From: a bacterium
Lineage (GTDB): Bacteria > Patescibacteriota > Minisyncoccia > Phycocordibacterales > JAGLPS01
DNA: 64,000 bases
Assembly: GCA_030690305.1 (NCBI GenBank)
Contig: JAUYHB010000024.1
Location: 260 to 64,259, forward strand
Direction of reading: 5' to 3'
The translations under genes and the position numbers were made by a program. The notes under the pieces were generated by a model. The model was not told the origin of the DNA, did not search any database, and saw only the letters and a list, made by a program, of their open reading frames with translations. Shown piece after piece: positions 11,182 to 59,398 of this stretch (positions are counted from its first letter, which is position 1; the number at the start of each line of letters is the position of its first letter).

Positions 11182-12636
11182 TTAATCTTTCGGTCTCATT
11201 AGAGGAAAGATTTGAGATTCCCGAATGCTTTCACCCGACAAGAAACTGAAAAGTCTTTCTGAAAGACCGAAACCGAAAGTCGGCGGCATTCCATATTCCA
11301 TCGCCTCCACATATTCAAAATCGGCCATATGCGCCTCATTATCACCGGCGTCACGGAGTTTCTGCTGATTTTCGAAACGTTCCCGCTGGTCGATAGGGTC
11401 ATTCAGTTCATTAAACGCCTTTCCCACTTCGCTTCCGGCTAAAATAATTTGGAAACGGTCAACGACACTCGGGTCTTTAACGGATTTTTTCGCAAGAGGT
11501 TCAAGATATATCGGAAACCCGGTGAGAATAACAGGTCCTTTTATGGTCTTCCTGATTTTTTTCCAAAGAAGGTCAATGCCCCGCCCTATATCAATATTTT
11601 CTTCATATTTTATTTTTTCCTTATCCAGAAGACCGCACACAACTTTTCTATCGGCCTTTCTTGGATCAAAACCATATTGTTCCTGCATGAGCGCATTGAA
11701 ATCCTGCCAAATCCATTCATCTCCAAGGTCAATATCAAATTCGCCTATTTTGAATTTGAGCGTATTGAATGTTTCTTTTGCAACCTGCTTATACAGTTCA
11801 ATAACCATAGGAATGCCCTTGCGTGCGTCCTGGTATGCTTCGTAAAATTCAAAATGCGTATAATCTTGGGCATGTTCATACGACATTCCTTCGTTTCTAA
11901 ACACCCTCCCGATTTCAAATATTTTGGGAATACCGCCGATAATCAATTTTTTGTGCCACAACTCAGGCGAAATACGCAGATACACGTCTATATCCAGTGC
12001 GTTGTGGTGAGTAACAAAAGGTCGTGCCTCGGCACCTCCCGTTTTGGTTTCTAAAATAGGAGTTTCAACTTCGATAAAACCGCGTTTAAGCATAAAAGAA
12101 CGGACAGCGTTCCAAAATACCGAGCGTTTTTTTATGATTTCGGTCGTTTTCTGATTAAGTAAAATGTCGAGATATCGTTTTCGGTACCGCCCCTCTTCAT
12201 CTTTGATACCAAACCACTCATCAGGAATTTGATTTAAGCTCTTTGAAAGCAGTCTCCATGATTTTCCCGATAACGAATTGACTCCCCTCTTGGTGGTGAA
12301 CGCTCCTCCGGTAATTTCCACAAAATCGCCGGTATTGATGGTTTCTACAAATAACTTGAATTGTTCTTCGCCAATATCGTCTTTTTTTACCAATGCTTGC
12401 ACGCGGGCAGAACCGTCAAAGAGGTCAATAAAAATAATTCCCCCTTGGTCCCTAAACGACATAATGCGTCCGGCAAGAGTTACCTGTTCTTGCGAAGAAA
12501 AAAGCGTACTAAAAACTTCCAGAAAATTGGCATTTTCATGCGTCCGAAAAGATTCAGCGGGATGAGGGTCAATCCCGTGTTCTTTTAAAATTTCTATCTT
12601 TTTCAGCCTTTCGGACCGAGTTTCGTCAGTAGACAT
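11182..12636 (-). CDS. lysS: lysyl-tRNA synthetase, class II
   Basis: Class II motifs 'FRTHENANFLEV', 'RVFRNEGMSYEH', 'GGAEARPF'. Start placed at 'MSTDETR', 7 nt after a 'tgatataat' -10, which suggests a leaderless mRNA. Confidence 0.9.
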   Translation of the reverse strand: MSTDETRSERLKKIEILKEHGIDPHPAESFRTHENANFLEVFSTLFSSQEQVTLAGRIMSFRDQGGIIFIDLFDGSARVQALVKKDDIGEEQFKLFVETINTGDFVEITGGAFTTKRGVNSLSGKSWRLLSKSLNQIPDEWFGIKDEEGRYRKRYLDILLNQKTTEIIKKRSVFWNAVRSFMLKRGFIEVETPILETKTGGAEARPFVTHHNALDIDVYLRISPELWHKKLIIGGIPKIFEIGRVFRNEGMSYEHAQDYTHFEFYEAYQDARKGIPMVIELYKQVAKETFNTLKFKIGEFDIDLGDEWIWQDFNALMQEQYGFDPRKADRKVVCGLLDKEKIKYEENIDIGRGIDLLWKKIRKTIKGPVILTGFPIYLEPLAKKSVKDPSVVDRFQIILAGSEVGKAFNELNDPIDQRERFENQQKLRDAGDNEAHMADFEYVEAMEYGMPPTFGFGLSERLFSFLSGESIRESQIFPLMRPKD

Positions 12637-12697
12637 GGGCTCTATTATATCAATTTTTCTTTTTTTCTTCCCGCTTTCCCCAGGCCGTTTGAGTAAG

Positions 12698-12847
12698 AAC
12701 TCACTTTCCAAAAATCTTACGGGACCTCTCCCCCCAGTTGGAGCGAGCAACCCCTTTTTCAGAGACTAGCGAGTGCGACGGCACGAGCTCGAGGAATTTT
12801 CTAGTAAGAAAATATCCGTGCTCTGAAGAAGGGATTGTGAACGATTT
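12698..12847. repeat. copy R1 of a dispersed intergenic repeat family (about 150 bp) containing the palindrome gGAATTTTCTAGTAAGAAAATATCc
   Basis: About 85% identical over about 150 bp to the reverse complement of 58020-58165. Partial matches at 46156-46250, 20934-21025 and 36781-36870. Confidence 0.7.
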
Positions 12848-13315
12848 TTATTTGATTTTCAGAATTTTGTATCGAACGGCGCCTTCGGGAGTTTCAAAGG
12901 AAAAAGTTTCTCCTTTCTTTTTTCCTATAATCGCTTTGCCGAACGGAGATTTCATGGATATTTTCGCGGCGGAAATGTCTGCTTCTTCCGAGCCGACAAT
13001 TGTATACACAAGTTCCCCCTTTCCCCCTTCGCGGGAAACCGTCACAACAGAGCCTACCGAAACTACGTCACCGTGGGCGCCTGAAACAATGTGCGCGGTT
13101 TTAATGAGAGACTCAAGCCGCGTGATTCGATTCTCGGTGTTTGCCTGCATTTCACGCGCTTCATGGTACTCGGCGTTTTCAGACAGGTCTCCGAGAGATT
13201 TTGCGTATTCAAGACTTTCGGCTATTTCTTTGCGTCTGGTCTTTTTGAGGTATTCAAGTTCTTTCTTGAATTCGTCATATTTCTCCTGCGTAAGATATTC
13301 TTTTTCTTCTTTCAT
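12848..13315 (-). CDS. greA: transcription elongation factor GreA
   Basis: 'YLTQEKYDEFKKELEYL...GDLSENAEY' and the FKBP-like C-terminal domain. Confidence 0.9.
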   Translation of the reverse strand: MKEEKEYLTQEKYDEFKKELEYLKKTRRKEIAESLEYAKSLGDLSENAEYHEAREMQANTENRITRLESLIKTAHIVSGAHGDVVSVGSVVTVSREGGKGELVYTIVGSEEADISAAKISMKSPFGKAIIGKKKGETFSFETPEGAVRYKILKIK

Positions 13316-13355
13316 ATTTGTTGGAAATTCATTCTATCGTGCAACAGGGTCAAAG

Positions 13356-15068
13356 TCAATTTGCGGGTTTTGCCTCAAAATATTCTGGTGTATGCGCGTT
13401 CATCCAGTCAAGAAGCTGGCGCATAACATAGGCTCCTCCAATAAGGTTCGTAACAGGCCCGCGCTCCATAACAACCGCAAAAGCGTATCGGGGAACGTCA
13501 AACGGAAAGAAACCGACAATCCACGAGTTCACATATTGCTTTGCCACGCCGAGTTCGGCGGTTCCCGTTTTTGCGGCAACTTTGACAAACGGGACGGAGA
13601 GGCCCTGGGCCGTTCCTTCCGTCACAGCCATTCGCATTCCCTCTTTGACAATAGTGAAATATTCGGAGGGGATATTAAGCGAGGTGGATTCTATTTTTCC
13701 TTCCGACACTATTTTGGGCCGTAAGAGCATTCCTTCGTTCGCAATCGCGGCAATCGCCCGAACAATCTGGATGGGCGTTACCTGAACACTGTATTGGCCG
13801 ATAGCCGTGTTATACGTATCCCCGACTCTCCACGCCTCTCCGTTAAAAGTTTCCTCCTTCCATTGCGGTGTCGGAATCAGTCCCGTTTCTTCATGTGGAA
13901 GGTCAATGCCCGTTTCCTCTCCGAAACCGAATTTTTTCATATACTCGTCGATTCTCTGTATGCCGAGGCCTTGCTGGTCTTCAAACCCCCCTCCGATTTC
14001 GTAAAAATATACGTCCGAAGAAACCGCGAGCGCGTGTCTCATGTCAACCCAGCCATGCGCTTTCCAGTCTTTAAAAACCGAACTTTGTCCCGGTGCGTAC
14101 GGGTTTGGAATGGAAATCGAACCGGTGGAAAGAATTTGTTTTTCCGGAGAAATGATTTGTTCGTTAAGAGCGGCAAGGGCAAGAAACGGTTTTACAATCG
14201 AGCCCGGAGTGTACAGCCCCGCAACGGCACGATTGAGAAAAGGTGTGTATGGATTGTTTACATAGTTTCTAATCTGTTCCGAATCGCCTCCGGTTAAGAC
14301 CGCCGAGCTGTATTCCGGGTAACTTGCAAGTGCAAGCATTTCTCCCGTCTGCACATCCATGATGAGGCCCGAGCCCGCTCGGAAACCGACATTGCCCGCC
14401 GTCTCCCTGATAATTTCATACAGCTTGCTTTGTATTGCCGAATCAACCGACAAAGAAAGGCTTCTTCCGCGCACAGGGGGCTCGATGACACTTTCGGACT
14501 GAACCGCGCCAAGAGCGTCGGTTTCGGTAATTTTCAAGCCGTTTGCTCCTCCAAGTAAAACATCATAGGCTCGTTCGACACCCTCCCGCCCATCGAATGT
14601 TTCCTGATAGTAAAAACCGTCGCTGTCTTTTGACGGATATTTAAGGTAGCCGAGAAGATGAGAAAGTCCGGGGAGAGACGTGTATTCGCGTAAAGAAAAA
14701 TCAGGGTTGTTCGGATGGATGCTGTTCCACGCCAATTCCACCTTGTTCCGGTCATAGACAACTCCCCGCTCGGAAAAGATAAGCGTGTGCCGTAGACGGT
14801 TGTTTTCGCTCTTTTGCGCATACGTTTTTCCCTCAACAATTTGCAAAGAAAATAACCGGAATACGAATACCAATCCGACAAAAAGAAAGAATACGCCGAG
14901 ATAGAGCGGCACTGATGAAGAAATCGGTTTCTCCAGTCTCCCTTCAAACTGGTTTCGGTCAAACTTCGGCAGGTTGCTTGAGTCAAGAAAAATATCTTCC
15001 GGGGCGATGTCCGCATATCTGTCACGCGGCCGCAACGGCAATTTTAGAAAATTCCGCAATCTTTTCAT
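13356..15068 (-). CDS. mrdA: peptidoglycan D,D-transpeptidase PBP2 (MrdA)
   Basis: TM, 'GSIVKP' SxxK, 'KTGTAE'. Adjacent to mreBCD. Confidence 0.8.
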   Translation of the reverse strand: MKRLRNFLKLPLRPRDRYADIAPEDIFLDSSNLPKFDRNQFEGRLEKPISSSVPLYLGVFFLFVGLVFVFRLFSLQIVEGKTYAQKSENNRLRHTLIFSERGVVYDRNKVELAWNSIHPNNPDFSLREYTSLPGLSHLLGYLKYPSKDSDGFYYQETFDGREGVERAYDVLLGGANGLKITETDALGAVQSESVIEPPVRGRSLSLSVDSAIQSKLYEIIRETAGNVGFRAGSGLIMDVQTGEMLALASYPEYSSAVLTGGDSEQIRNYVNNPYTPFLNRAVAGLYTPGSIVKPFLALAALNEQIISPEKQILSTGSISIPNPYAPGQSSVFKDWKAHGWVDMRHALAVSSDVYFYEIGGGFEDQQGLGIQRIDEYMKKFGFGEETGIDLPHEETGLIPTPQWKEETFNGEAWRVGDTYNTAIGQYSVQVTPIQIVRAIAAIANEGMLLRPKIVSEGKIESTSLNIPSEYFTIVKEGMRMAVTEGTAQGLSVPFVKVAAKTGTAELGVAKQYVNSWIVGFFPFDVPRYAFAVVMERGPVTNLIGGAYVMRQLLDWMNAHTPEYFEAKPAN

Positions 15069-20903: not shown

Positions 20904-20933
20904 GTCTTTTCTTTTAGTTAAAGTGAGAATTTG

Positions 20934-21025
20934 CTTTTCAAAAATCTTGCGGAGTTCGTGGAGAACGAGCAGAGAAAAATTCAGTAGAATTTTATCGTGT
21001 TTTTGAAAAGCAAATATGAGCGGTT
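20934..21025. repeat. intergenic repeat copy A (about 90 bp), paired with 36781-36870
   Basis: About 85% identity to 36781-36870. The 5' end 'ttttcaaaaatcttgcggag' is shared with R1 at 12704. Confidence 0.65.
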
Positions 21026-21026
21026 T

Positions 21027-22040
21027 TTACCGCTTGGCTATAATTGTTTTTTTATACAAATCAAGATGGTTAAGGGCGATTCCGGTTCCTTTGGCAACGC
21101 AGAAAAATGGGTCTTTCGCGAGAATTGCCTTGACCCCGGTCCTGCGGTAGACAAGTTCGGGAAGATTGCGCAGTTGGGATGTTCCGCCCGTCATAATGAT
21201 TCCTCTGTCGATAATGTCTGAGGACAGCTCCGGTGGAGTTTCCTGCAAAACATTTTTAACGGCACGAACGATTTCTTGCAGTTCCTTGTTTATGGCCTTA
21301 ACCACTTCGTTTGTTTTCACTTCTATTGAACGGGGAAGGCCTGAAACGAAATCACGTCCTTTTATGGTAGCCGTCAGTTCCTCATCAAGAGGAAGCGCGG
21401 AACCGATTTTGATTTTTATTTCTTCCGCGGTTCGGTCACCGATAGCAAGATTGAAGGCTTTTTTGATGTAATCGGCAATGGCATGATCAATTCTATCCCC
21501 GGCAATTTTTACGGAAGTAGACGCAACGATGCCCCCCAAAGAAATGACAGCGACGTCAGTTGTTCCGCCACCGACATCCACCACCATGTGCCCCGCCGCT
21601 TCGTGAATTGGTATTCCCGCCCCTATCGCGGCAAGGATCGGTTCTTTAACAACATAGGCGTTCCGCGCGCCGGCTTTAATCGCGGCCTCAATAACCGCGC
21701 GCCGTTCCGTTGACGTTACCCCGGCGGGCACAGACACCAACACCTCGGGCTTTATAAAACTCCACCTACCGAGAACCTTGCTGATAAAATAGCGCAGCAT
21801 CGCTTCGGTGACACGATAATCGGCAATTACTCCGTCTTTCATCGGTCTGTAAGCGATAATGCTTTCCGGAGTTTTTCCTATCATTTCTTTCGCTTCCGTT
21901 CCGACGGCAAGAATTTTATTGTCTTCTTCGGATACGGCAACCACGGAGGGCTCATTTAGGACAACACCCTTCCCCGGCACATACACGAGCGTGTTCGCCG
22001 TGCCGAGGTCTATTCCGAGTTTTCGAGAAAATAGTCCCAT
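21027..22040 (-). CDS. second MreB/Mbl-like actin homolog
   Basis: 'LGIDLGTANTLVYVPGKGVVLNEPSVVAV', a paralog of the mreB at 16124. Confidence 0.85.
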   Translation of the reverse strand: MGLFSRKLGIDLGTANTLVYVPGKGVVLNEPSVVAVSEEDNKILAVGTEAKEMIGKTPESIIAYRPMKDGVIADYRVTEAMLRYFISKVLGRWSFIKPEVLVSVPAGVTSTERRAVIEAAIKAGARNAYVVKEPILAAIGAGIPIHEAAGHMVVDVGGGTTDVAVISLGGIVASTSVKIAGDRIDHAIADYIKKAFNLAIGDRTAEEIKIKIGSALPLDEELTATIKGRDFVSGLPRSIEVKTNEVVKAINKELQEIVRAVKNVLQETPPELSSDIIDRGIIMTGGTSQLRNLPELVYRRTGVKAILAKDPFFCVAKGTGIALNHLDLYKKTIIAKR

Positions 22041-35981: not shown

Positions 35982-36641
35982 TTATAAAGGAACAATTTTT
36001 TCCATGTTTTTTCCGAAAGAAACCGCGCGGACCTTCACTTGCGCTTCTTTTTCTAGAAGCGTAATACCCTCAATAAATTCTTTGGGTAGGTCTTTGGAGG
36101 AAGAGACGGCGTCCGTTTCGCATTTCCATCCGGGAAACCTTTTGTAAAATGCCTGGCATTTTTCCAGAACTCCGTTTGACGGAATTGCGGTATAAAACTC
36201 GCTTTGCATTGAGAGTGTTTCCTTACCCCGGCGTTTTCCCGTGTAATACGGCTCCGTCCCTTCGTAACGATATCCGACACATAATCGTATTTCAGGACAA
36301 CCGTTTAACACTTCGGCCCGAGCAAGGATAATTTCCCTTCGCTCGTTTCTCAAAGCGTGACGTAACAAGGCAAGGTCGAGCCAGCCTATTCTCAAAGGCC
36401 TTCCAAGAGCATCATACTCATCCGCCTTTATACGAATAGCCGCGCCCAGTTCAAATTCATCCTTACTTTCAAGGCTTGCCGTGGGAAACTCTTTGAGATC
36501 CCGCTCTCTGTCGACAAGACCTGCACACCATCGTGCAGATTTCCGGCCTCCCATTTCCGTGGGAATACATTGCCGCAAATTGGAATTAGCCATATAAAAC
36601 GCTTTGACGACAAAACATCTATCCGTAAAAAAGCGGTTCAT
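35982..36641 (-). CDS. stand-alone adenylosuccinate synthetase C-terminal-domain homolog (no GTP-binding N-domain)
   Basis: 'GRPLRIGWLDLALLRHA', 'IRLCVGYRY', 'FPGWKCETDA', 'LPKEFIEGITLLEKEAQVKV' are colinear with the PurA C-terminal half. Strong SD 'aaaggagg' and a 'tatataat' -10. Confidence 0.6.
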   Translation of the reverse strand: MNRFFTDRCFVVKAFYMANSNLRQCIPTEMGGRKSARWCAGLVDRERDLKEFPTASLESKDEFELGAAIRIKADEYDALGRPLRIGWLDLALLRHALRNERREIILARAEVLNGCPEIRLCVGYRYEGTEPYYTGKRRGKETLSMQSEFYTAIPSNGVLEKCQAFYKRFPGWKCETDAVSSSKDLPKEFIEGITLLEKEAQVKVRAVSFGKNMEKIVPL

Positions 36642-36780
36642 ATAAACCTCCTTTCGTGGAAGTTACGATTTTAAAGAAGAATCATTTTCTTGCCACACAT
36701 TATATAAAAAGACCAAAAGACGCAAGAAAGGGATAGCTTTTCAAAAATATTTCCCTCAAGCCGTTTGAGCGAAAATTTAC

Positions 36781-36870
36781 TTTTCCAAAATCTTACGGAG
36801 CTCGTTGAGGGCGAGTAGAGAAAAATTCAGAAGAATTTTATCGTGTTTTGGAAAAGTGAATTTGAGCGGG
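36781..36870. repeat. intergenic repeat copy B (about 90 bp), paired with 20934-21025
   Basis: About 85% identity to copy A. Overlaps the spurious 63-aa ORF 36777..36968. Confidence 0.65.
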
Positions 36871-36873
36871 TCT

Positions 36874-37371
36874 TTAAGGCTGGAACAATTCTTCGGGCAA
36901 AAAACGGACGGAGGATACCTCGGGAAATTGTTTTGCCGTAGCTTCAATTTGAAACCACAAAATCCCAACCCGGCATGAGCCGCCCCCTGTTTTGTTTTCG
37001 GTATCGGAAAAAGTAAGTGTGAGAAGACCGTTTTTAAGTTCGGTACTTTTCAATTCCAGACCGGGTAAGGGATATTCGGTCATGAGGCCTTGCTTCTTTT
37101 CTGCTTCAGTCAGCTCACCTTTCAAAAGCAGGTTGATGGTGTCTTCTATCGGCATCGTACTGTTCTCAATCTTCCGTTCAACGCTTTGCAAACCGTTTTG
37201 AGAACATAATATGTTTCCCGTTTCGTCTTTATCCGCTTTCGGATTGTAATAAAAAAGTTGGACAGCACGGCCGACATCTTCTTTGTGCAGCAATAATGGC
37301 ACGAAATACAACGATGATACGACAAGAAAAGAGAGAATAACAAAAAAGATAAGAGATTGTTTACTCATGCC
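36874..37371 (-). CDS. GerMN domain-containing exported protein
   Basis: TM/signal anchor plus GerM-like beta-rich domain ('LTLTFSDTENKTGGGSCRVGILWFQIEAT'). Confidence 0.55.
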   Translation of the reverse strand, partial: GMSKQSLIFFVILSFLVVSSLYFVPLLLHKEDVGRAVQLFYYNPKADKDETGNILCSQNGLQSVERKIENSTMPIEDTINLLLKGELTEAEKKQGLMTEYPLPGLELKSTELKNGLLTLTFSDTENKTGGGSCRVGILWFQIEATAKQFPEVSSVRFLPEELFQP

Positions 37372-37434
37372 CCCAGTATACACCCTCAAAAAATAACGAA
37401 AAAGACCCGCCTTTACAAAACGCGGTGGGTCTTT

Positions 37435-40672: not shown

Positions 40673-40760
40673 GGCTGCATCTCCAGTAAAGGGTTAGGGT
40701 TTCTGGTTCAACCAGTCTAAGCCTTATTGTACACCGTAATACAATATTTGTCAATATCTA

Positions 40761-40779
40761 GCTCCCCCGGGAGGATTCG
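40761..40779 (-). repeat. partial copy 2 of the tRNA-Asn 3' end (T-loop to discriminator), att-site-like
   Basis: 19/19 identical to 41125-41143. Its copy of the 41122-40943 unit spans 40921-40761 and is closed by a terminator hairpin at about 40880-40905. Confidence 0.7.
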
Positions 40780-40921
40780 GTCACAGGTTCTTGCTTCGCA
40801 GACCTGCGACCCCGACTCGGCGCTTCATCCTGCCCCGCAGGCGCGCCTCCGTCTTTCGAACCCCCTAACCGTGGAAGTTGGAAATACAAAAACGCCCGTG
40901 AAGGGCGTCTTGATTTTCAAA

Positions 40922-40940
40922 GCTCCCCCGGGAGGATTCG
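40922..40940 (-). repeat. partial copy 1 of the tRNA-Asn 3' end, att-site-like
   Basis: 19/19 identical to the tRNA 3' end. Both copies also share two further flanking nt (agctcccccgggaggattcgg). Confidence 0.7.
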
Positions 40941-41122
40941 GCTACACGTCTTATCTCGCCGTCGCTCGGTAAACTCGCAGCCCGCCCCTCGCGGTTTTGT
41001 CTGCTGACAAAACATCGCTGCGGTCTTCGAATCCTCACGAACGCACAACAATGTGCGTTCTCCGTTTGGAAAACCTAAACGATAAAAAAGACCCTGCGTG
41101 GAGCAAGGTCTTTTTTATTCGT

Positions 41123-41197
41123 TGGCTCCCCCGGGAGGATTCGAACCTCCGACCAATCGATTAACAGTCGATTGCTCTACCGCTGAGCTACAGGGGA
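41123..41197 (-). tRNA. tRNA-Asn (anticodon GTT)
   Basis: TCCCCTGTAGCTCAGCGGTAGAGCAATCGACTGTTAATCGATTGGTCGGAGGTTCGAATCCTCCCGGGGGAGCCA. Terminator hairpin immediately 3' (41089-41120). Confidence 0.9.
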
Positions 41198-41289
41198 ATG
41201 TAGTTATATTATTCCGCTCTGTTCTATGATTGCAAATTTTTATTCTTAGCAATCTCCTTACAGTGCGATCTCCTTACAGGAGCTGCACA

Positions 41290-41367
41290 CCCTTTGAGAT
41301 ATTTTACTTCGTTCCTCATAAAATATCTCAAAGGGTCTTGCGAAGCTCCAAGTCTTCACTTCTCACT
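41290..41367. repeat. perfect 17-bp-stem hairpin plus a 34-bp module (copy R4) shared with 46156-46189
   Basis: ccctttgagatatttta...taaaatatctcaaaggg. 'ggtcttgcgaagctccaagtcttcacttctcact' is the reverse complement of 46156-46189 with one mismatch. Confidence 0.6.
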
Positions 41368-41429
41368 CCACCGCCAAGCTACAGGGGAATAATAAAGACT
41401 ATACTAGCAAAAAATCGCTATCCTGCAAT

Positions 41430-46093: not shown

Positions 46094-46155
46094 AAAAATT
46101 GTTTGTTTAAGTACAGAAAATTATATCACAGGGAAACCGTAAAAAAGAAAAAGAG

Positions 46156-46250
46156 AGTGAGAAGCGAAGACTTGGAGCTTCGCAAGACCGGAGGAGCGCT
46201 TCCGCTCCGAGGTGGGGTCGCGAAATTTTCTAGTAAGAAAATATTCGTGA
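46156..46250. repeat. repeat copy R3: 34-bp module, GC hairpin and the family palindrome gaaattttctagtaagaaaatatt
   Basis: Shares the palindrome with R1 and R2 and the 34-bp module with 41334-41367. Sits upstream of a 'tgtgatataat' -10 for the aldolase gene. Confidence 0.6.
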
Positions 46251-46290
46251 CAGGATAAAAACCAGAGCAAAAAGCCCCTTCAGGGGGCTT

Positions 46291-46461
46291 TTACTTTTTC
46301 TCTTTGTACACCGTATGCTTCCGGGCTATTGGGTTGTATTTTTTAATTGAAAGTTTCGCCGGAGTATTTTTTTTGTTTTTGGACGTAAAATACACATGGC
46401 CCTTACCTACGCCTTTTGCGTCCCCTTCCGAAACGATTCTTATGAGTTTATCTTGAGACAT
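46291..46461 (-). CDS. rpmG: 50S ribosomal protein L33
   Basis: '[56 protein letters not shown]' matches the bL33 pattern. Terminator hairpin at 46268-46295. Too short for the ORF track. Confidence 0.8.
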
Positions 46462-49519: not shown

Positions 49520-49715
49520 TTGATGAGGACAGTATAGCAAAAACCCGCTCTAATTTCCTTTTGCAAAACACGATAAAATCCTACTGGATTTTTCTCTGCT
49601 CGCCTTCTTCAGGCTCCGCAAGATTTTTTAAAAGGAAATTCTCGCTCAAACGTCCTGAAGGAAAAGCTAAAGAAAAACAAAAAACCCCGCTTGCGCGGGG
49701 TGTTTTTGTTTATGC

Positions 49716-57588: not shown

Positions 57589-58017
57589 ATGCGCGTGAAA
57601 ATTGATGTTGAAGAAATGTCAAAAGCAACATGCATACCTGCCGAGACAATCAGGCGGGCACTGACCCTGAGAAGACCGACATTGGAAATAGGGGAAAAGC
57701 GGTATCCTGAATCTTTATTTGATTATATGGTTATCGCTTTTGAAAAGTCACCTTCCCCAAATTCTCTTCGGAAGATAATTTGTCAGTACTTTCTTGCAGT
57801 TAAATTTCAGCGGAAATACCCGACCCAAGCGGAGTTTAAAATGATGGAAAGATTTTTCGAAACAGTAGTTAAAGACGAAAATCCTTCCGAAGCGTTGCGT
57901 ATATGGAAACGCATGCCAATGAGATTCCGAAACGGGGTACATGAGATTTTTATCGCGTATTTCTATTCCCAACGCAATAAATTTGTACGCGAGCATGCAT
58001 ATCGTTTTCGCAAATGA
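57589..58017 (+). CDS. hypothetical protein
   Basis: ORF only. Confidence 0.4.
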   Translation: MRVKIDVEEMSKATCIPAETIRRALTLRRPTLEIGEKRYPESLFDYMVIAFEKSPSPNSLRKIICQYFLAVKFQRKYPTQAEFKMMERFFETVVKDENPSEALRIWKRMPMRFRNGVHEIFIAYFYSQRNKFVREHAYRFRK

Positions 58018-58019
58018 AA

Positions 58020-58165
58020 ACTGTTCGCAATCTCTTTTTCAAAGTACGGATATTTTCTTACTAGAAAATTCCTCGAGTTCGCGCCAGTCGCGCTCACTAG
58101 TCTCTGAAAAAAAGATTGTTCACTTCAACGACCCGAGGGGAAAGGGGTCTGAAGAAAAAAGCCCT
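58020..58165. repeat. repeat copy R2 (inverted relative to R1), between convergent genes
   Basis: Reverse complement is about 85% identical to 12698-12847, including the palindrome. Confidence 0.7.
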
Positions 58166-58192: not shown

Positions 58193-59398
58193 TTAATGAT
58201 AGTTGCGCAGACGGTTAATCTTTTTATGCTGACGCATCTTTTCGTGCGCTTTTGCCTCAATCTGACGGATACGCTCTCGGGTTACCCCGAACTCTTTTCC
58301 GACTTCTTCAAGAGTGTGCGTTACCCCATCGACAAGACCATGACGCATTTCAAGAATTTTTCTTTCTTTCGGCGGAAGACTGTCGAGAATTTCTTTGACT
58401 TGGTCGGCAACGATACGACGAGAAGTGTCTTCTTCGGGTGAAAGGATTTTGTCGTCGGGAACAAAGTCCCCGAGTACCGATTTTCCGTCGTCTCCGTCAT
58501 CCCCCACCGGACTTTCAAGCGACACCGTATTTTGGTCGATTTTTTCTATTTGGTAAATTTTTTCGACTTCCATATTCATTTCTGTGGCAATTTCCTCCGG
58601 TAACGGGTCACGGCCAAGGTCCTGGGAAAGACGACGCACCACCTGTTTGTATTTCGCAATTGTTTCAACCATATGCACCGGCACACGGATGGTGCGGGAC
58701 TGGTCGGCCAACGCACGCGTGATTGCCTGTCTGATCCACCATGTCGCGTAAGTTGAGAACTTAAAACCTTTTGTCCAGTCAAACTTATCTACCGCTTTGA
58801 AAAGGCCCAGGTTCCCTTCTTGAATAAGGTCGAGAAGCGTGAGGTCCGGACTGCGACCAACATATTTTTTGGCGATTGAAACAACAAGACGAAGGTTTGA
58901 CCGGGCAAGGAGATTTTTTGCTTCATCATCTCCGGCGAGAATTCGTTTCGCAAGTTCCTTTTCTTGTGCCCCGTTAATCAAAGGATATTGTCCGATTTCC
59001 TTAAGATACATCTGAATCGAATCGTATGATTCTCCAGAAGTCGAGTCGTCTTTATATCCGAGCTTTTTGAGAGCAACATCGTCATCGATTGGGGTATCCA
59101 AAAGATTGCCTCCTTCCAAAACGTCAATGCCCCTGGTGGTCAAACGTTCATACAGTTCATCAAGAAAGGAAACGTTGTCTTCAATAGTCGGGAACTCTTT
59201 GAGGATTTCGTCATATGTTACAAAACCCCGCTGTTTCCCTTTCCCAAGCAAAATTTCCACCTTCATTTCAAAGTTTTCCTTTTTTGTCCCCTTATGCTCG
59301 GTGACAGCCGCTTTCTTTACGGGTTTTTTTGTCGGGCGTTTCTTTTGGTGGGAGCGGGATTTTCCGGCTTGTTTTTTTGTTTTCTTTTTCTTAATCAT
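58193..59398 (-). CDS. rpoD: RNA polymerase sigma-70 factor RpoD
   Basis: Regions 1.2-4: '[11 protein letters not shown]', '[13 protein letters not shown]', '[20 protein letters not shown]'. Confidence 0.9.

What the first reader, a model, noticed from the sequence alone, without database searches (positions are those of the whole stretch)
12698..12847. Dispersed ~150-bp intergenic repeat (R1/R2) with conserved 25-bp palindrome GGAATTTTCTAGTAAGAAAATATCC
12698-12847 and the reverse complement of 58020-58165 align over about 150 bp at about 85% identity. Both contain the palindrome (half-sites GAATTTTCTA / TAGAAAATTC-like) and a GC-rich hairpin (gacccctttcccctcgggtc in R2). R1 sits between the greA stop and the lysS -10 element. 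R2 sits between convergent genes next to the rpoD terminator. Candidates: a REP/MITE-like element, an operator array for a global dimeric regulator, or a structured ncRNA family.
Basis: seen in the sequence. Interest (0 to 1): 0.6.

Follow-up and report, generated by a model that had tools for sequence, protein, structure and literature searches.

The report
Structured intergenic repeat family of Patescibacteria
The two repeats are copies of a previously uncatalogued, multi-copy non-coding element of Patescibacteria (CPR bacteria) that folds into a long hairpin capped by a conserved three-way junction; its biochemical role is still unknown.

Summary
R1 (12735-12852 +) and R2 (58013-58131 -) are two of five full copies in the window. 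The others are 20915-21031 +, 36761-36877 + and 49537-49653 -. There are also two fragments (12675-12722, 46196-48).

All copies share one architecture. P1 is a 16-45 bp stem with no conserved sequence. It closes a three-way junction made of P2 and P3. P2 is a GC hairpin with a tandem G.A internal loop.

A covariance model found 23 more copies in 14 genomes, from Saccharibacteria to Paceibacteria, and 78 in metagenome contigs. In those, 93% of cells are paired and 35 of 38 pairs show compensatory changes. No Rfam 15 family matches.

The element is non-coding and intergenic. It has no target-site duplication, no conserved terminal repeats and no linked transposase. It has no promoter or U-tract signal. 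Its distribution is patchy: none in 69 kb from four relatives. Yet it recurs at the same sites (after greA, after dnaK, before prfA) in distant lineages.

Best reading: a structure-constrained repeat with a REP/REPIN-like lifestyle that most likely acts as RNA within neighbouring transcripts. The operator-array reading is rejected. The function is inferred, not shown.

The parts
12735..12852 (+). R1, full element (subtype A). Basal GAGCGAG/GAACG flanks, P1, three-way junction. The 3' T-run overlaps the greA stop codon (TTA at 12848-12850).
   Evidence: cmsearch 112.9-117.4 bits; fold
12748..12764 (+). R1 P1 5' arm (CAACCCCTTTTTCAGAG). It pairs with 12821-12837.
   Evidence: compensatory C-G/T-A change versus R2
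12768..12789 (+). R1 P2: AGC-GA-GTGC-GACG-GCAC-GA-GCT, a hairpin with a tandem G.A internal loop.
   Evidence: GTGC/GCAC in R1 versus GCGC/GCGC in R2 is compensatory
12793..12817 (+). GGA-AUUUUCU / AGUA loop / AGAAAAU-(A bulge)-UCC.
12821..12837 (+). R1 P1 3' arm (CTCTGAAGAAGGGATTG).
12675..12722 (+). Truncated 5' half of a subtype-B element (flank + P1 5' arm + TCTTACGG), abutting R1.
   Evidence: the repeat finder family D2, 79% identical to 36751-36798
58013..58131 (-). R2, full element (subtype A). P1 58118-58102 / 58044-58028; P2 58098-58076; P3 58072-58048. The 3' flank contains the stop codon of converging ORF 57589-58017.
   Evidence: cmsearch 110.5-113.1 bits
20915..21031 (+). Full element, subtype B, between the mreB-like stop (TTA 21027-21029, inside the element's T-run) and the holB-like start.
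36761..36877 (+). Full element, subtype B. The stop codon of gene 36874-37389 (-) lies in its 3' flank.
49537..49653 (-). Full element, subtype B, sense-oriented between the truB terminator and the eno start.
46196..46248 (+). Partial copy (P2-like hairpin + extended P3, no P1), embedded in a possible about 170-nt terminator-ended RNA (46128-46297).
   Evidence: 17 bits; 33 bits

Best explanation
R1 and R2 belong to a Patescibacteria-wide family of 90-190 nt non-coding elements. One defined strand folds into a long stem of free sequence (P1; median 24 bp). P1 is capped by a conserved three-way junction of about 60 nt: C-U / P2 (WGC-GA-hairpin-GA-GCW) / CGA / P3 (GGA-stem-AGYA-stem-A-UCC) / GUG. 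In 'class I' copies, which include all five in this window, P1 is 17-19 bp and is closed by a second GC-GA/GA-GC motif (GAGCGA...GAGCG). What is shown: the family exists, it is not coding, and its fold is under selection on one strand. It is old and is kept at particular intergenic sites. It occasionally duplicates and decays. What is inferred: it behaves like REP/REPIN elements. It is a slowly copying intergenic repeat that the host retains because, once transcribed within neighbouring mRNAs, it forms a very stable intercistronic or 3'-end hairpin. That hairpin would act as an exonuclease barrier and an RNase III-size duplex. The conserved cap and the tandem-G.A motifs would be the docking site for a conserved but unidentified protein.
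For: Window copies: five full copies and one partial copy in 64 kb share one fold; in A3, 17 of 35 pairs show compensatory change among five sequences. Other genomes and metagenomes: 23 copies in 14 genomes from Saccharibacteria, Wildermuthbacteria, Taylorbacteria and Paceibacteria, and 78 in metagenome loci. Fold statistics: 89-93% of cells paired versus about 50% when partners are slid; 34-35 of 38 pairs with double changes; 0 of 500 shuffles reach the observed values. Strand asymmetry: the modelled strand is more stable in 25 of 28 copies. Purine-purine tandem loops are conserved in P2. G.U versus A.C is 26:11 in the core and 117:56 in P1 (p=4e-6). Not coding: P2 loops have 1-nt indels and P1 is free. 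Conserved sites: right after the greA stop in the window and in L148, whose GreA is 72% identical; the subtype differs but the stop-codon geometry is the same. Also between dnaK and dnaJ in three lineages with DnaK 60-66% identical, and between rpmE and prfA in L013, L020 and L103. REP-like dynamics: young pairs; fragments; a contig break inside the element; empty orthologous sites in L149 and L013; and 0 copies in 69 kb from four relatives. When a gene converges on the 3' end, its stop codon lies a median 6 nt away. Rfam gives no match.
Against: The orientation of the asymmetric cap relative to flanking genes is mixed: O/O 29, S/S 22, S/O 20, O/S 13; with strict gene criteria 13/6/4/1. In many copies the abundant mRNA would therefore carry the reverse complement of the cap, which cannot form the G.A motifs. 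In antisense (O/O) copies the P1 G.U:A.C ratio is 18:21. No expression data exist. No partner protein was found. Only 8% of copies have a U-tract, so termination is not the general role. A cap conserved across classes is unusual for REP-type elements.
Confidence: 0.5

Rival explanations
1. It is a non-autonomous mobile DNA element. The element, or just its about 60-nt cap, is copied through a single-stranded DNA intermediate by an unlinked enzyme (HUH/Y1-type or other) that recognises the folded cap. P1 arms are either target hairpins or are created and extended by template switching.
For: On single contigs, caps are near-identical while P1 arms are unrelated or only partly shared: L067 has 96% core identity and unrelated P1; L087 has unique but self-complementary outer arms. 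P1 is almost pure Watson-Crick and up to 45-67 bp. One copy sits in the loop of a terminator that is plain in a syntenic genome. Distribution is patchy. There are nested and truncated copies and assembly breaks. Orientation is mixed.
Against: There is no TSD beyond the structural GAGCG motif. No transposase-like family recurs among about 1046 flanking ORFs. No viral copies were found. Copies within a contig are usually divergent subtypes rather than recent copies. Orthologous copies have diverged in place. The G.U excess over A.C points to RNA.
Confidence: 0.25
2. Each copy is a functional RNA in its own right. It could be a trans-acting sRNA, a self-cleaving ribozyme, or a ligand- or protein-sensing cap that controls the hairpin below it.
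For: The junction is conserved at about riboswitch level, with roughly 35 near-invariant nucleotides across classes. It tolerates an inserted extra hairpin domain at J2/3 in L002 and L087. Class I copies have a fixed 17-19 bp spacing between two tandem-G.A motifs. The partial copy at 46128-46297 has its own terminator.
Against: There is no positional promoter signal and no terminator on either strand. Orientation relative to genes is not fixed. No known ribozyme or riboswitch model matches, even at E<=10.
Confidence: 0.13
3. It is an intrinsic (bidirectional) transcription terminator carrying an ornamental loop.
For: Some copies have A/T tracts flanking P1: L013, L020:2777 and L020:4501. Window copies have GAGCGG-TTTTT on the modelled strand. 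The CM also picks up plain terminators weakly.
Against: Only 8% of 97 copies have >=7 T in the 12 nt after P1, on either strand. Many copies lie between cistrons 5-20 nt from the next start codon. In the window, the T-run is on the strand antisense to greA, mreB and the 36874-37389 gene.
Confidence: 0.07
4. It is a double-stranded DNA operator bound by a dimeric regulator at the 25-bp palindrome.
For: The palindrome is imperfect, with 10-bp arms and a 4-bp spacer, and is repeated in intergenic DNA.
Against: Both arms change together, and different arm sequences coexist in one genome: AATTTTCT/AGAAAAT and AAAAATTC/GAATTTT in the window. Pairs 131-148 and 132-147 split CG/UA 22:51 and 40:35. There is an asymmetric bulged A, the loop is conserved rather than the half-sites, and the site is always embedded in a larger asymmetric fold. 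Positions fall after stop codons rather than at promoters.
Confidence: 0.03

Closest known systems
REP/BIME elements and REPINs (RAYT-associated repetitive extragenic palindromes; PMC3116915, PMC3333891, PMC3733652)
   Same: High-copy, non-coding, strictly intergenic hairpin-forming repeats. They often lie between cistrons or just after stop codons. They duplicate slowly and persist for a long time. Several classes coexist in each genome.
   Different: REPs are 20-40 nt units with a GTAG/CGTC tag whose sequence is conserved within a genome and differs between species. Here the stem sequence is free, and a 60-nt three-way-junction cap is conserved across classes of a phylum. No RAYT was found near any copy.
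MITEs / foldback elements (e.g. Correia/NEMIS, RUP, BOX)
   Same: About 100-200 nt repeats with inverted-repeat arms. Subfamilies, truncated and mosaic copies occur, such as R1 next to half of a B-type copy.
   Different: There are no family-wide terminal inverted repeats and no target-site duplication. The arms co-vary rather than being conserved, and the centre is the conserved part.
Multi-copy 'orphan' structured RNA motifs in Rfam (e.g. HEARO/IscB omega-RNA, IS605-orfB reRNAs, STAXI)
   Same: Covariation-supported folds present many times per genome.
   Different: No sequence or structure match was found (Rfam 15). There is no associated IscB, TnpB or other gene.
Integron attC sites
   Same: Structure-conserved, sequence-variable hairpins of 57-141 nt that function on one strand.
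   Different: attC sites have inverse core sites (RYYYAAC...GTTRRRY) and occur in same-orientation cassette arrays. Here the flanks are direct (GAGCGA...GAGCG), copies are dispersed in both orientations among housekeeping genes, and the apex is a conserved junction.

Membership tests
Any Rfam 15 family | Covariance-model match at or near the gathering score | tested here: not met
   The whole window at gathering threshold gave only 2 tRNAs. Region 12500-13000 at E<=10 gave only chance hits outside the element. Ten further loci carrying elements, at E<=1, gave no hit on the elements.
REP / BIME | 20-40 nt imperfect palindrome with a conserved GTAG or CGTC tag at one end, with sequence conserved among copies in a genome | tested here: not met
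   The unit is 90-190 nt with a three-way junction. The stem sequence is not conserved among copies. No terminal GTAG/CGTC tag was seen by inspection.
REP / REPIN | A cognate RAYT (Y1 transposase) gene, typically flanked by the repeats | tested here: inconclusive
   No recurrent non-housekeeping protein family was found among about 1046 ORFs flanking 106 elements. Whole genomes could not be searched.
MITE | Terminal inverted repeats with sequence conserved across the family | tested here: not met
   P1 arms are unrelated between copies, even on one contig (L067). All 19 modelled P1 pairs show compensatory changes in A4 and A6, and 18 of 19 in A7.
MITE | Target-site duplication flanking each copy | tested here: not met
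   32 of 102 copies have no flanking direct repeat and most have <=3 nt. The excess at >=5 nt (12 observed versus 3.4 expected) comes mostly from the recurrent structural motif GAGCGA...GAGCG, which accounts for 9 of the 12.
Intrinsic terminator | Hairpin immediately followed by a U-tract | tested here: not met
   8% of 97 copies have >=7 T of 12 after P1, and the fraction is the same on both strands.
Independent sRNA gene | Own promoter at a fixed distance and own terminator | tested here: not met
   There is no positional enrichment of -10-like hexamers upstream on either strand. Sigma-70-type motifs were the only kind tested.
Structured RNA (generic) | Compensatory base-pair changes exceeding controls, with G.U > A.C on the modelled strand | tested here: met
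   (0 of 500 shuffles reach the observed values; slid controls give about 50% paired). (G.U:A.C 26:11 in the core and 117:56 in P1, p=4e-6). Caveat: the ratio is 18:21 in copies antisense to both neighbours.
Palindromic transcription-factor operator | Conserved half-site sequence on duplex DNA, positioned at promoters | tested here: not met
   Half-sites co-vary and differ between copies within one genome. Copies sit after stop codons or between cistrons.
Integron attC | Inverse core sites R''/R' and arrangement in cassette arrays | tested here: not met
   The flanks are direct repeats of a GA motif. Copies are dispersed, 8-16 kb apart, in both orientations among housekeeping genes.

The most novel reading that the evidence does not exclude
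The about 60-nt cap is a new class of functional RNA or single-strand module specific to Patescibacteria. It could be a ribozyme or a protein- or ligand-sensing junction that governs the long helix beneath it. Alternatively it could be a minimal mobile unit that colonises hairpin loops, which would explain identical caps on unrelated, perfectly paired stems. Either way it would be a global, dozens-of-copies-per-genome layer of post-transcriptional control or genome parasitism in organisms with about 1-Mb genomes.
Probability: 0.2. Interest if true: 0.85.

Novelty: new variant of a known kind. Interest (0 to 1): 0.66.

Why it matters
Patescibacteria (CPR) have tiny, streamlined genomes and almost no characterised non-coding RNA biology. 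In this window the structured element occurs about once per 13 kb. It is conserved from Saccharibacteria to Paceibacteria and sits next to core housekeeping genes (greA, lysS, rpoD, mreB, eno, dnaK/dnaJ, rpmE/prfA, ftsK). It is one of the strongest covariation-supported folds that is absent from Rfam. It offers a handle on several questions: how these organisms punctuate and stabilise operon transcripts; whether repeat-host symbiosis of the REP kind exists in CPR; and how very long, perfect stems are generated around a conserved centre. It also matters practically, because the element breaks metagenome assemblies (a contig ends inside it) and would be mis-annotated as ORFs.

Tried and rejected
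Tried without result:
- Rfam at gathering and permissive thresholds gave no family.
- Literature searches found no description in CPR.
- A viral-contig scan gave 0 hits.
- Neighbour-gene clustering for a transposase or partner returned only housekeeping families.
- Promoter and U-tract position scans showed no signal.
- The TSD test found only the structural GAGCG motif.
- A GC-skew/replication-orientation explanation showed no switch matching the element orientations.

Rejected readings:
- Coding or tmRNA-like tag reading of the UAG-UAA in the P3 loop: rejected because of 1-nt indels in P2 between R1 and R2 and variable P2 and P1 lengths.
- Hammerhead and other ribozyme cores: the junction strands do not fit by inspection, and there are no Rfam hits.
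- Strong antisense orientation rule: this appeared in the first 28 copies but weakened to non-significance with 106 copies.
- Concerted evolution of caps within genomes: not general.

One run_python call was an empty no-op.

Full report
**1. Checking the observation.** The sequence at 12698-12847 and the reverse complement of 58020-58165 are clearly related. The repeat finder reports inverted-repeat arms 12780-12854/58011-58085 (75 nt, 87%) and 12737-12779/58087-58129 (43 nt, 81%). The 25-mer GGAATTTTCTAGTAAGAAAATATCC is exact at 12793-12817 (+) and 58048-58072 (-). It recurs with two mismatches at 46222-46246 (+). Dinucleotide shuffles expect 0.00 such matches.

greA is 12848-13315 (-), and lysS starts at 12636 (-) behind a TATAAT box. 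rpoD is 58193-59398 (-) with its own terminator, and an ORF at 57589-58017 (+) converges on R2. The window comes from a Patescibacteria MAG: GCA_034375565.1 is identical across this region.

The same repeat search found a second family at 20905-21028 (+), 36750-36875 (+) and 49539-49664 (-). The 48 nt just upstream of R1 (12675-12722) resemble the 5' part of that family.

Aligning all five copies shows one architecture with shared flanks: CGTTKGAGCGA ... TGAGCGG-TTTT. RNAalifold predicts a long stem enclosing two hairpins, and 17 of 35 pairs are compensatory among only five sequences.

A covariance model scores all five at 110-122 bits. It also recovers a partial copy at 46196-46248, and otherwise picks up only plain terminator hairpins at 17 bits or less. 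The window therefore holds five full copies (two of subtype A = R1/R2, three of subtype B), one 5' fragment and one cap-only fragment.

**3. Anatomy, using R1 coordinates.**
- P1 is 12748-12764 paired with 12821-12837.
- After A-C-U comes P2 (12768-12789). It reads AGC-GA-GUGC-[GACG]-GCAC-GA-GCU: a helix interrupted by two tandem G.A mismatches.
It is a 10-bp AU-rich stem with an AGUA loop and a bulged A in the 3' arm.
- GUG then leads back into P1.

R1 and R2 differ by compensatory changes in P1 (C-G versus U-A) and in P2 (GUGC/GCAC versus GCGC/GCGC). They also differ by a 1-nt indel in the P2 loop, which excludes a conserved reading frame.

In subtype B the P3 arms are GAAAAAUUC/GAAUUUU-A-UC. 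The arm sequence differs, but the hairpin, loop and bulge are the same.

In all five window copies, and in copies from at least seven other sources, P1 is 17-19 bp. It is closed by GAGCGA...GAGCG(R), a second copy of the GC-GA/GA-GC motif found in P2.

**4. Relatives elsewhere.** An exact 22-mer from P3 occurs in 20 places in 14 GTDB species genomes. These are Patescibacteria wherever the record names a group: Saccharibacteria, Wildermuthbacteria, Taylorbacteria, Paceibacterota and 'Parcubacteria'. None occurs in viral contigs.

The model finds complete elements at 19 of these places, plus four additional, more divergent copies nearby. The twentieth (L002) is a variant with an about 80-nt extra hairpin domain inserted between P2 and P3.

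The 80 listed loci yielded 78 model hits, at 35-111 bits, from groundwater, sediment, peat and soil.

**5. Fold statistics.**

| Alignment | Sequences | Cells paired | Paired when partners slid | Pairs with changes on both sides |
|---|---|---|---|---|
| A6 (window + genomes) | 28 | 89% | 39-52% | 34 of 38 |
| A7 (metagenomes) | 77 distinct | 93% | 44-55% | 35 of 38 |

No shuffle out of 500 reaches any observed measure. All 19 modelled P1 pairs vary on both sides in A6, and 18 of 19 in A7. P3 is 99.7% paired, and its apical pairs switch between C-G and U-A.

About 35 junction and loop nucleotides are near-invariant. One caveat is that these alignments were fitted to the model. The structure-blind MAFFT/RNAalifold result on the window copies shows the same helices.

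**6. Which strand folds?** The modelled strand (R1 +, R2 -) is thermodynamically favoured in 25 of 28 copies, by 4.6 kcal/mol on average. The internal loops of P2, and of the P1 base, are purine-purine on this strand. They would be pyrimidine-pyrimidine on the other.

| Region | G.U | A.C | Source |
|---|---|---|---|
| Cap (P2, P3, junction pair) | 26 | 11 | |
| P1, symmetric alignment-free stem walk over 103 non-redundant copies | 117 | 56 | (p=4e-6) |
| P1, copies antisense to both neighbours | 18 | 21 | |
| P1, S/O copies (upstream neighbour co-oriented, downstream converging) | 13 | 1 | |

This pattern points to selection on a single-stranded form, most simply RNA. The near-even ratio in antisense copies suggests that the stem is also constrained in whichever transcript runs through it.

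**7. Genomic behaviour.** The copies are intergenic and flanked by unrelated housekeeping genes. No non-housekeeping protein family recurs among about 1046 flanking ORFs, so no linked transposase, reverse transcriptase or nuclease was found.

There is no target-site duplication. The small excess of flanking direct repeats comes mostly from the structural GAGCG motif. There is no positional -10 signal, and only 8% of copies have a U-tract, equally on both strands.

Orientation relative to neighbours is mixed. The first 28 copies looked strongly antisense. With 106 copies the counts are O/O 29, S/S 22, S/O 20 and O/S 13, or 13/6/4/1 under strict gene criteria.

One geometric regularity holds. 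When a gene converges on the element's 3' end, its stop codon lies a median 6 nt away. In four of the five window copies the stop codon is formed by the element's own T-run (TTTTTA, or TTTTCA in R2).

P1 ranges from 13 to 45 bp (5th-95th percentile; median 24, maximum 67) and is about 89% Watson-Crick.

**8. Evolutionary dynamics: evidence for duplication and turnover.**
- Young pairs exist. B1-B3 are about 80% identical and R1/R2 about 85%. L106 has identical caps with compensatory changes in P1.
- There are truncated and juxtaposed copies (12675-12722 next to R1; 46196-46248).
- A Logan contig ends inside the element.
- Four relatives with LysS 73-85% identical show no copy in 69 kb, even with filters off.
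- L020 carries a copy inside the loop of the bL25 terminator, whereas the syntenic L013 has a plain terminator.

**9. Evolutionary dynamics: evidence for long residence.**
- Directly after the greA stop, in the same antisense geometry (TAA-A-R-R-N-CG-Y-TC...), the syntenic relative L148 (GreA 72% identical) carries a bona fide member of another subtype. It scores 63 bits and has a GC-rich P3 apex, the same GACG and AGCA loops and the bulged A.
- L149 has an empty 48-nt greA-lysS spacer.
- L147 has a long hairpin with the same AGCGA/GAGCG flanks but a different apical domain.
- The dnaK-dnaJ spacer is occupied in three lineages whose DnaK proteins are only 60-66% identical.
- The rpmE-prfA spacer is occupied in L013, L020 and L103, and the proteins of L013 and L020 are 41-75% identical.
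- Copies on one contig are usually different subtypes.

One pattern is unexplained. On some contigs the caps are nearly identical while the stems are unrelated yet self-complementary, from the first base pair (L067) or beyond a shared inner segment (L087). Possible causes are insertion of the cap into existing hairpins, outward extension of arms by replication template switching (a general mechanism described in PMC8794818), or gene conversion of caps. My data do not discriminate between these.

**10. Interpretation.** Shown: this is a real, non-coding, structure-constrained element family specific to Patescibacteria. It is multi-copy, old and absent from Rfam 15.

Inferred: its lifestyle resembles that of REP/REPIN elements (PMC3116915, PMC3333891). 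It copies rarely, persists for a long time and sits in intercistronic or post-stop-codon positions. The most economical functional reading is a stable RNA hairpin within neighbouring transcripts. From general knowledge, hairpins of this kind block 3' exonucleases, and duplexes of about 20 bp or more are RNase III substrates. The conserved junction and the paired tandem-G.A motifs would act as a protein-docking cap.

The weak point is the mixed orientation of an asymmetric cap. This keeps alive the rival that the cap serves the element's own propagation through a single-stranded DNA intermediate. It also keeps alive the more exciting possibility of an autonomous RNA activity.

The operator-array idea is rejected, because the palindrome's arms co-vary and several versions coexist in one genome. 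The terminator idea fails for most copies.

**11. Novelty and score.** By lifestyle this is a new variant of a known kind (dispersed structured intergenic repeats). By architecture and conservation pattern it is unlike described REP, MITE, attC or Rfam families. I found no description in the searchable literature. Interest is 0.66. I put about 20% on its being a genuinely new functional RNA class or a cap-only mobile unit, which would merit about 0.85.

Noticed in passing
window 40750-41400 (- strand): Unexplained tRNA-like pieces surround tRNA-Asn (41123-41197). A copy of its 5' acceptor/D-arm lies at 41366-41390. Two GC-rich segments of about 120-140 nt (41060-40921 and 40880-40760) each end in the tRNA's T-arm/3'-acceptor sequence and are bounded by terminator hairpins. 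ARAGORN and Rfam call only the tRNA.
   Followed up: partly
window 46128-46297 (+) and 41334-41368: The cap-only fragment sits in a possible about 170-nt RNA with three hairpins and its own terminator. Its 5' 35 nt are 97% identical to the reverse complement of 41334-41368, next to the tRNA-like 5' piece. There is no Rfam match and no copy in the 146 fetched loci.
   Followed up: partly
window 35982-36641 (-): This 219-aa ORF next to a subtype-B copy matches only the C-terminal third (positions 273-415 of 416) of adenylosuccinate synthetase. It may be a truncated or split purA.
   Followed up: no
L022 (Logan contig SRR26726065_19114), end of contig: An independent assembly of the same organism breaks inside R1. 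This is consistent with the repeat collapsing or breaking short-read assemblies.
   Followed up: no
L072 687-805 and 821-1169: An element lies 16 nt upstream of a tmRNA gene, in the same orientation.
   Followed up: no
L035 2283-3738; L091; L081 2964-3218; L102 8957-9473: Local crowding. L035 has three elements in three consecutive intergenic spacers within 1.5 kb. L091 has five in 13 kb. L081 and L091 have back-to-back inverted pairs.
   Followed up: partly
L147 2505-2655: At the orthologous post-greA site, a relative carries a long hairpin with the same AGCGA/GAGCG flanks but a different apical two-hairpin domain. That domain folds better on the greA-sense strand. It may be a distant subtype or a replaced cap.
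   Followed up: partly
L002 2900-3075 (-); L087 1324-1473 and 7663-7812: Variants with large insertions (extra hairpins) between P2 and P3, or within P2, while P1, P3 and the junction are kept.
   Followed up: partly
window 12738-13724 (+): A 328-aa ORF starting inside R1 and running antisense through greA is almost certainly spurious. Elements of this family can seed false gene calls.
   Followed up: no
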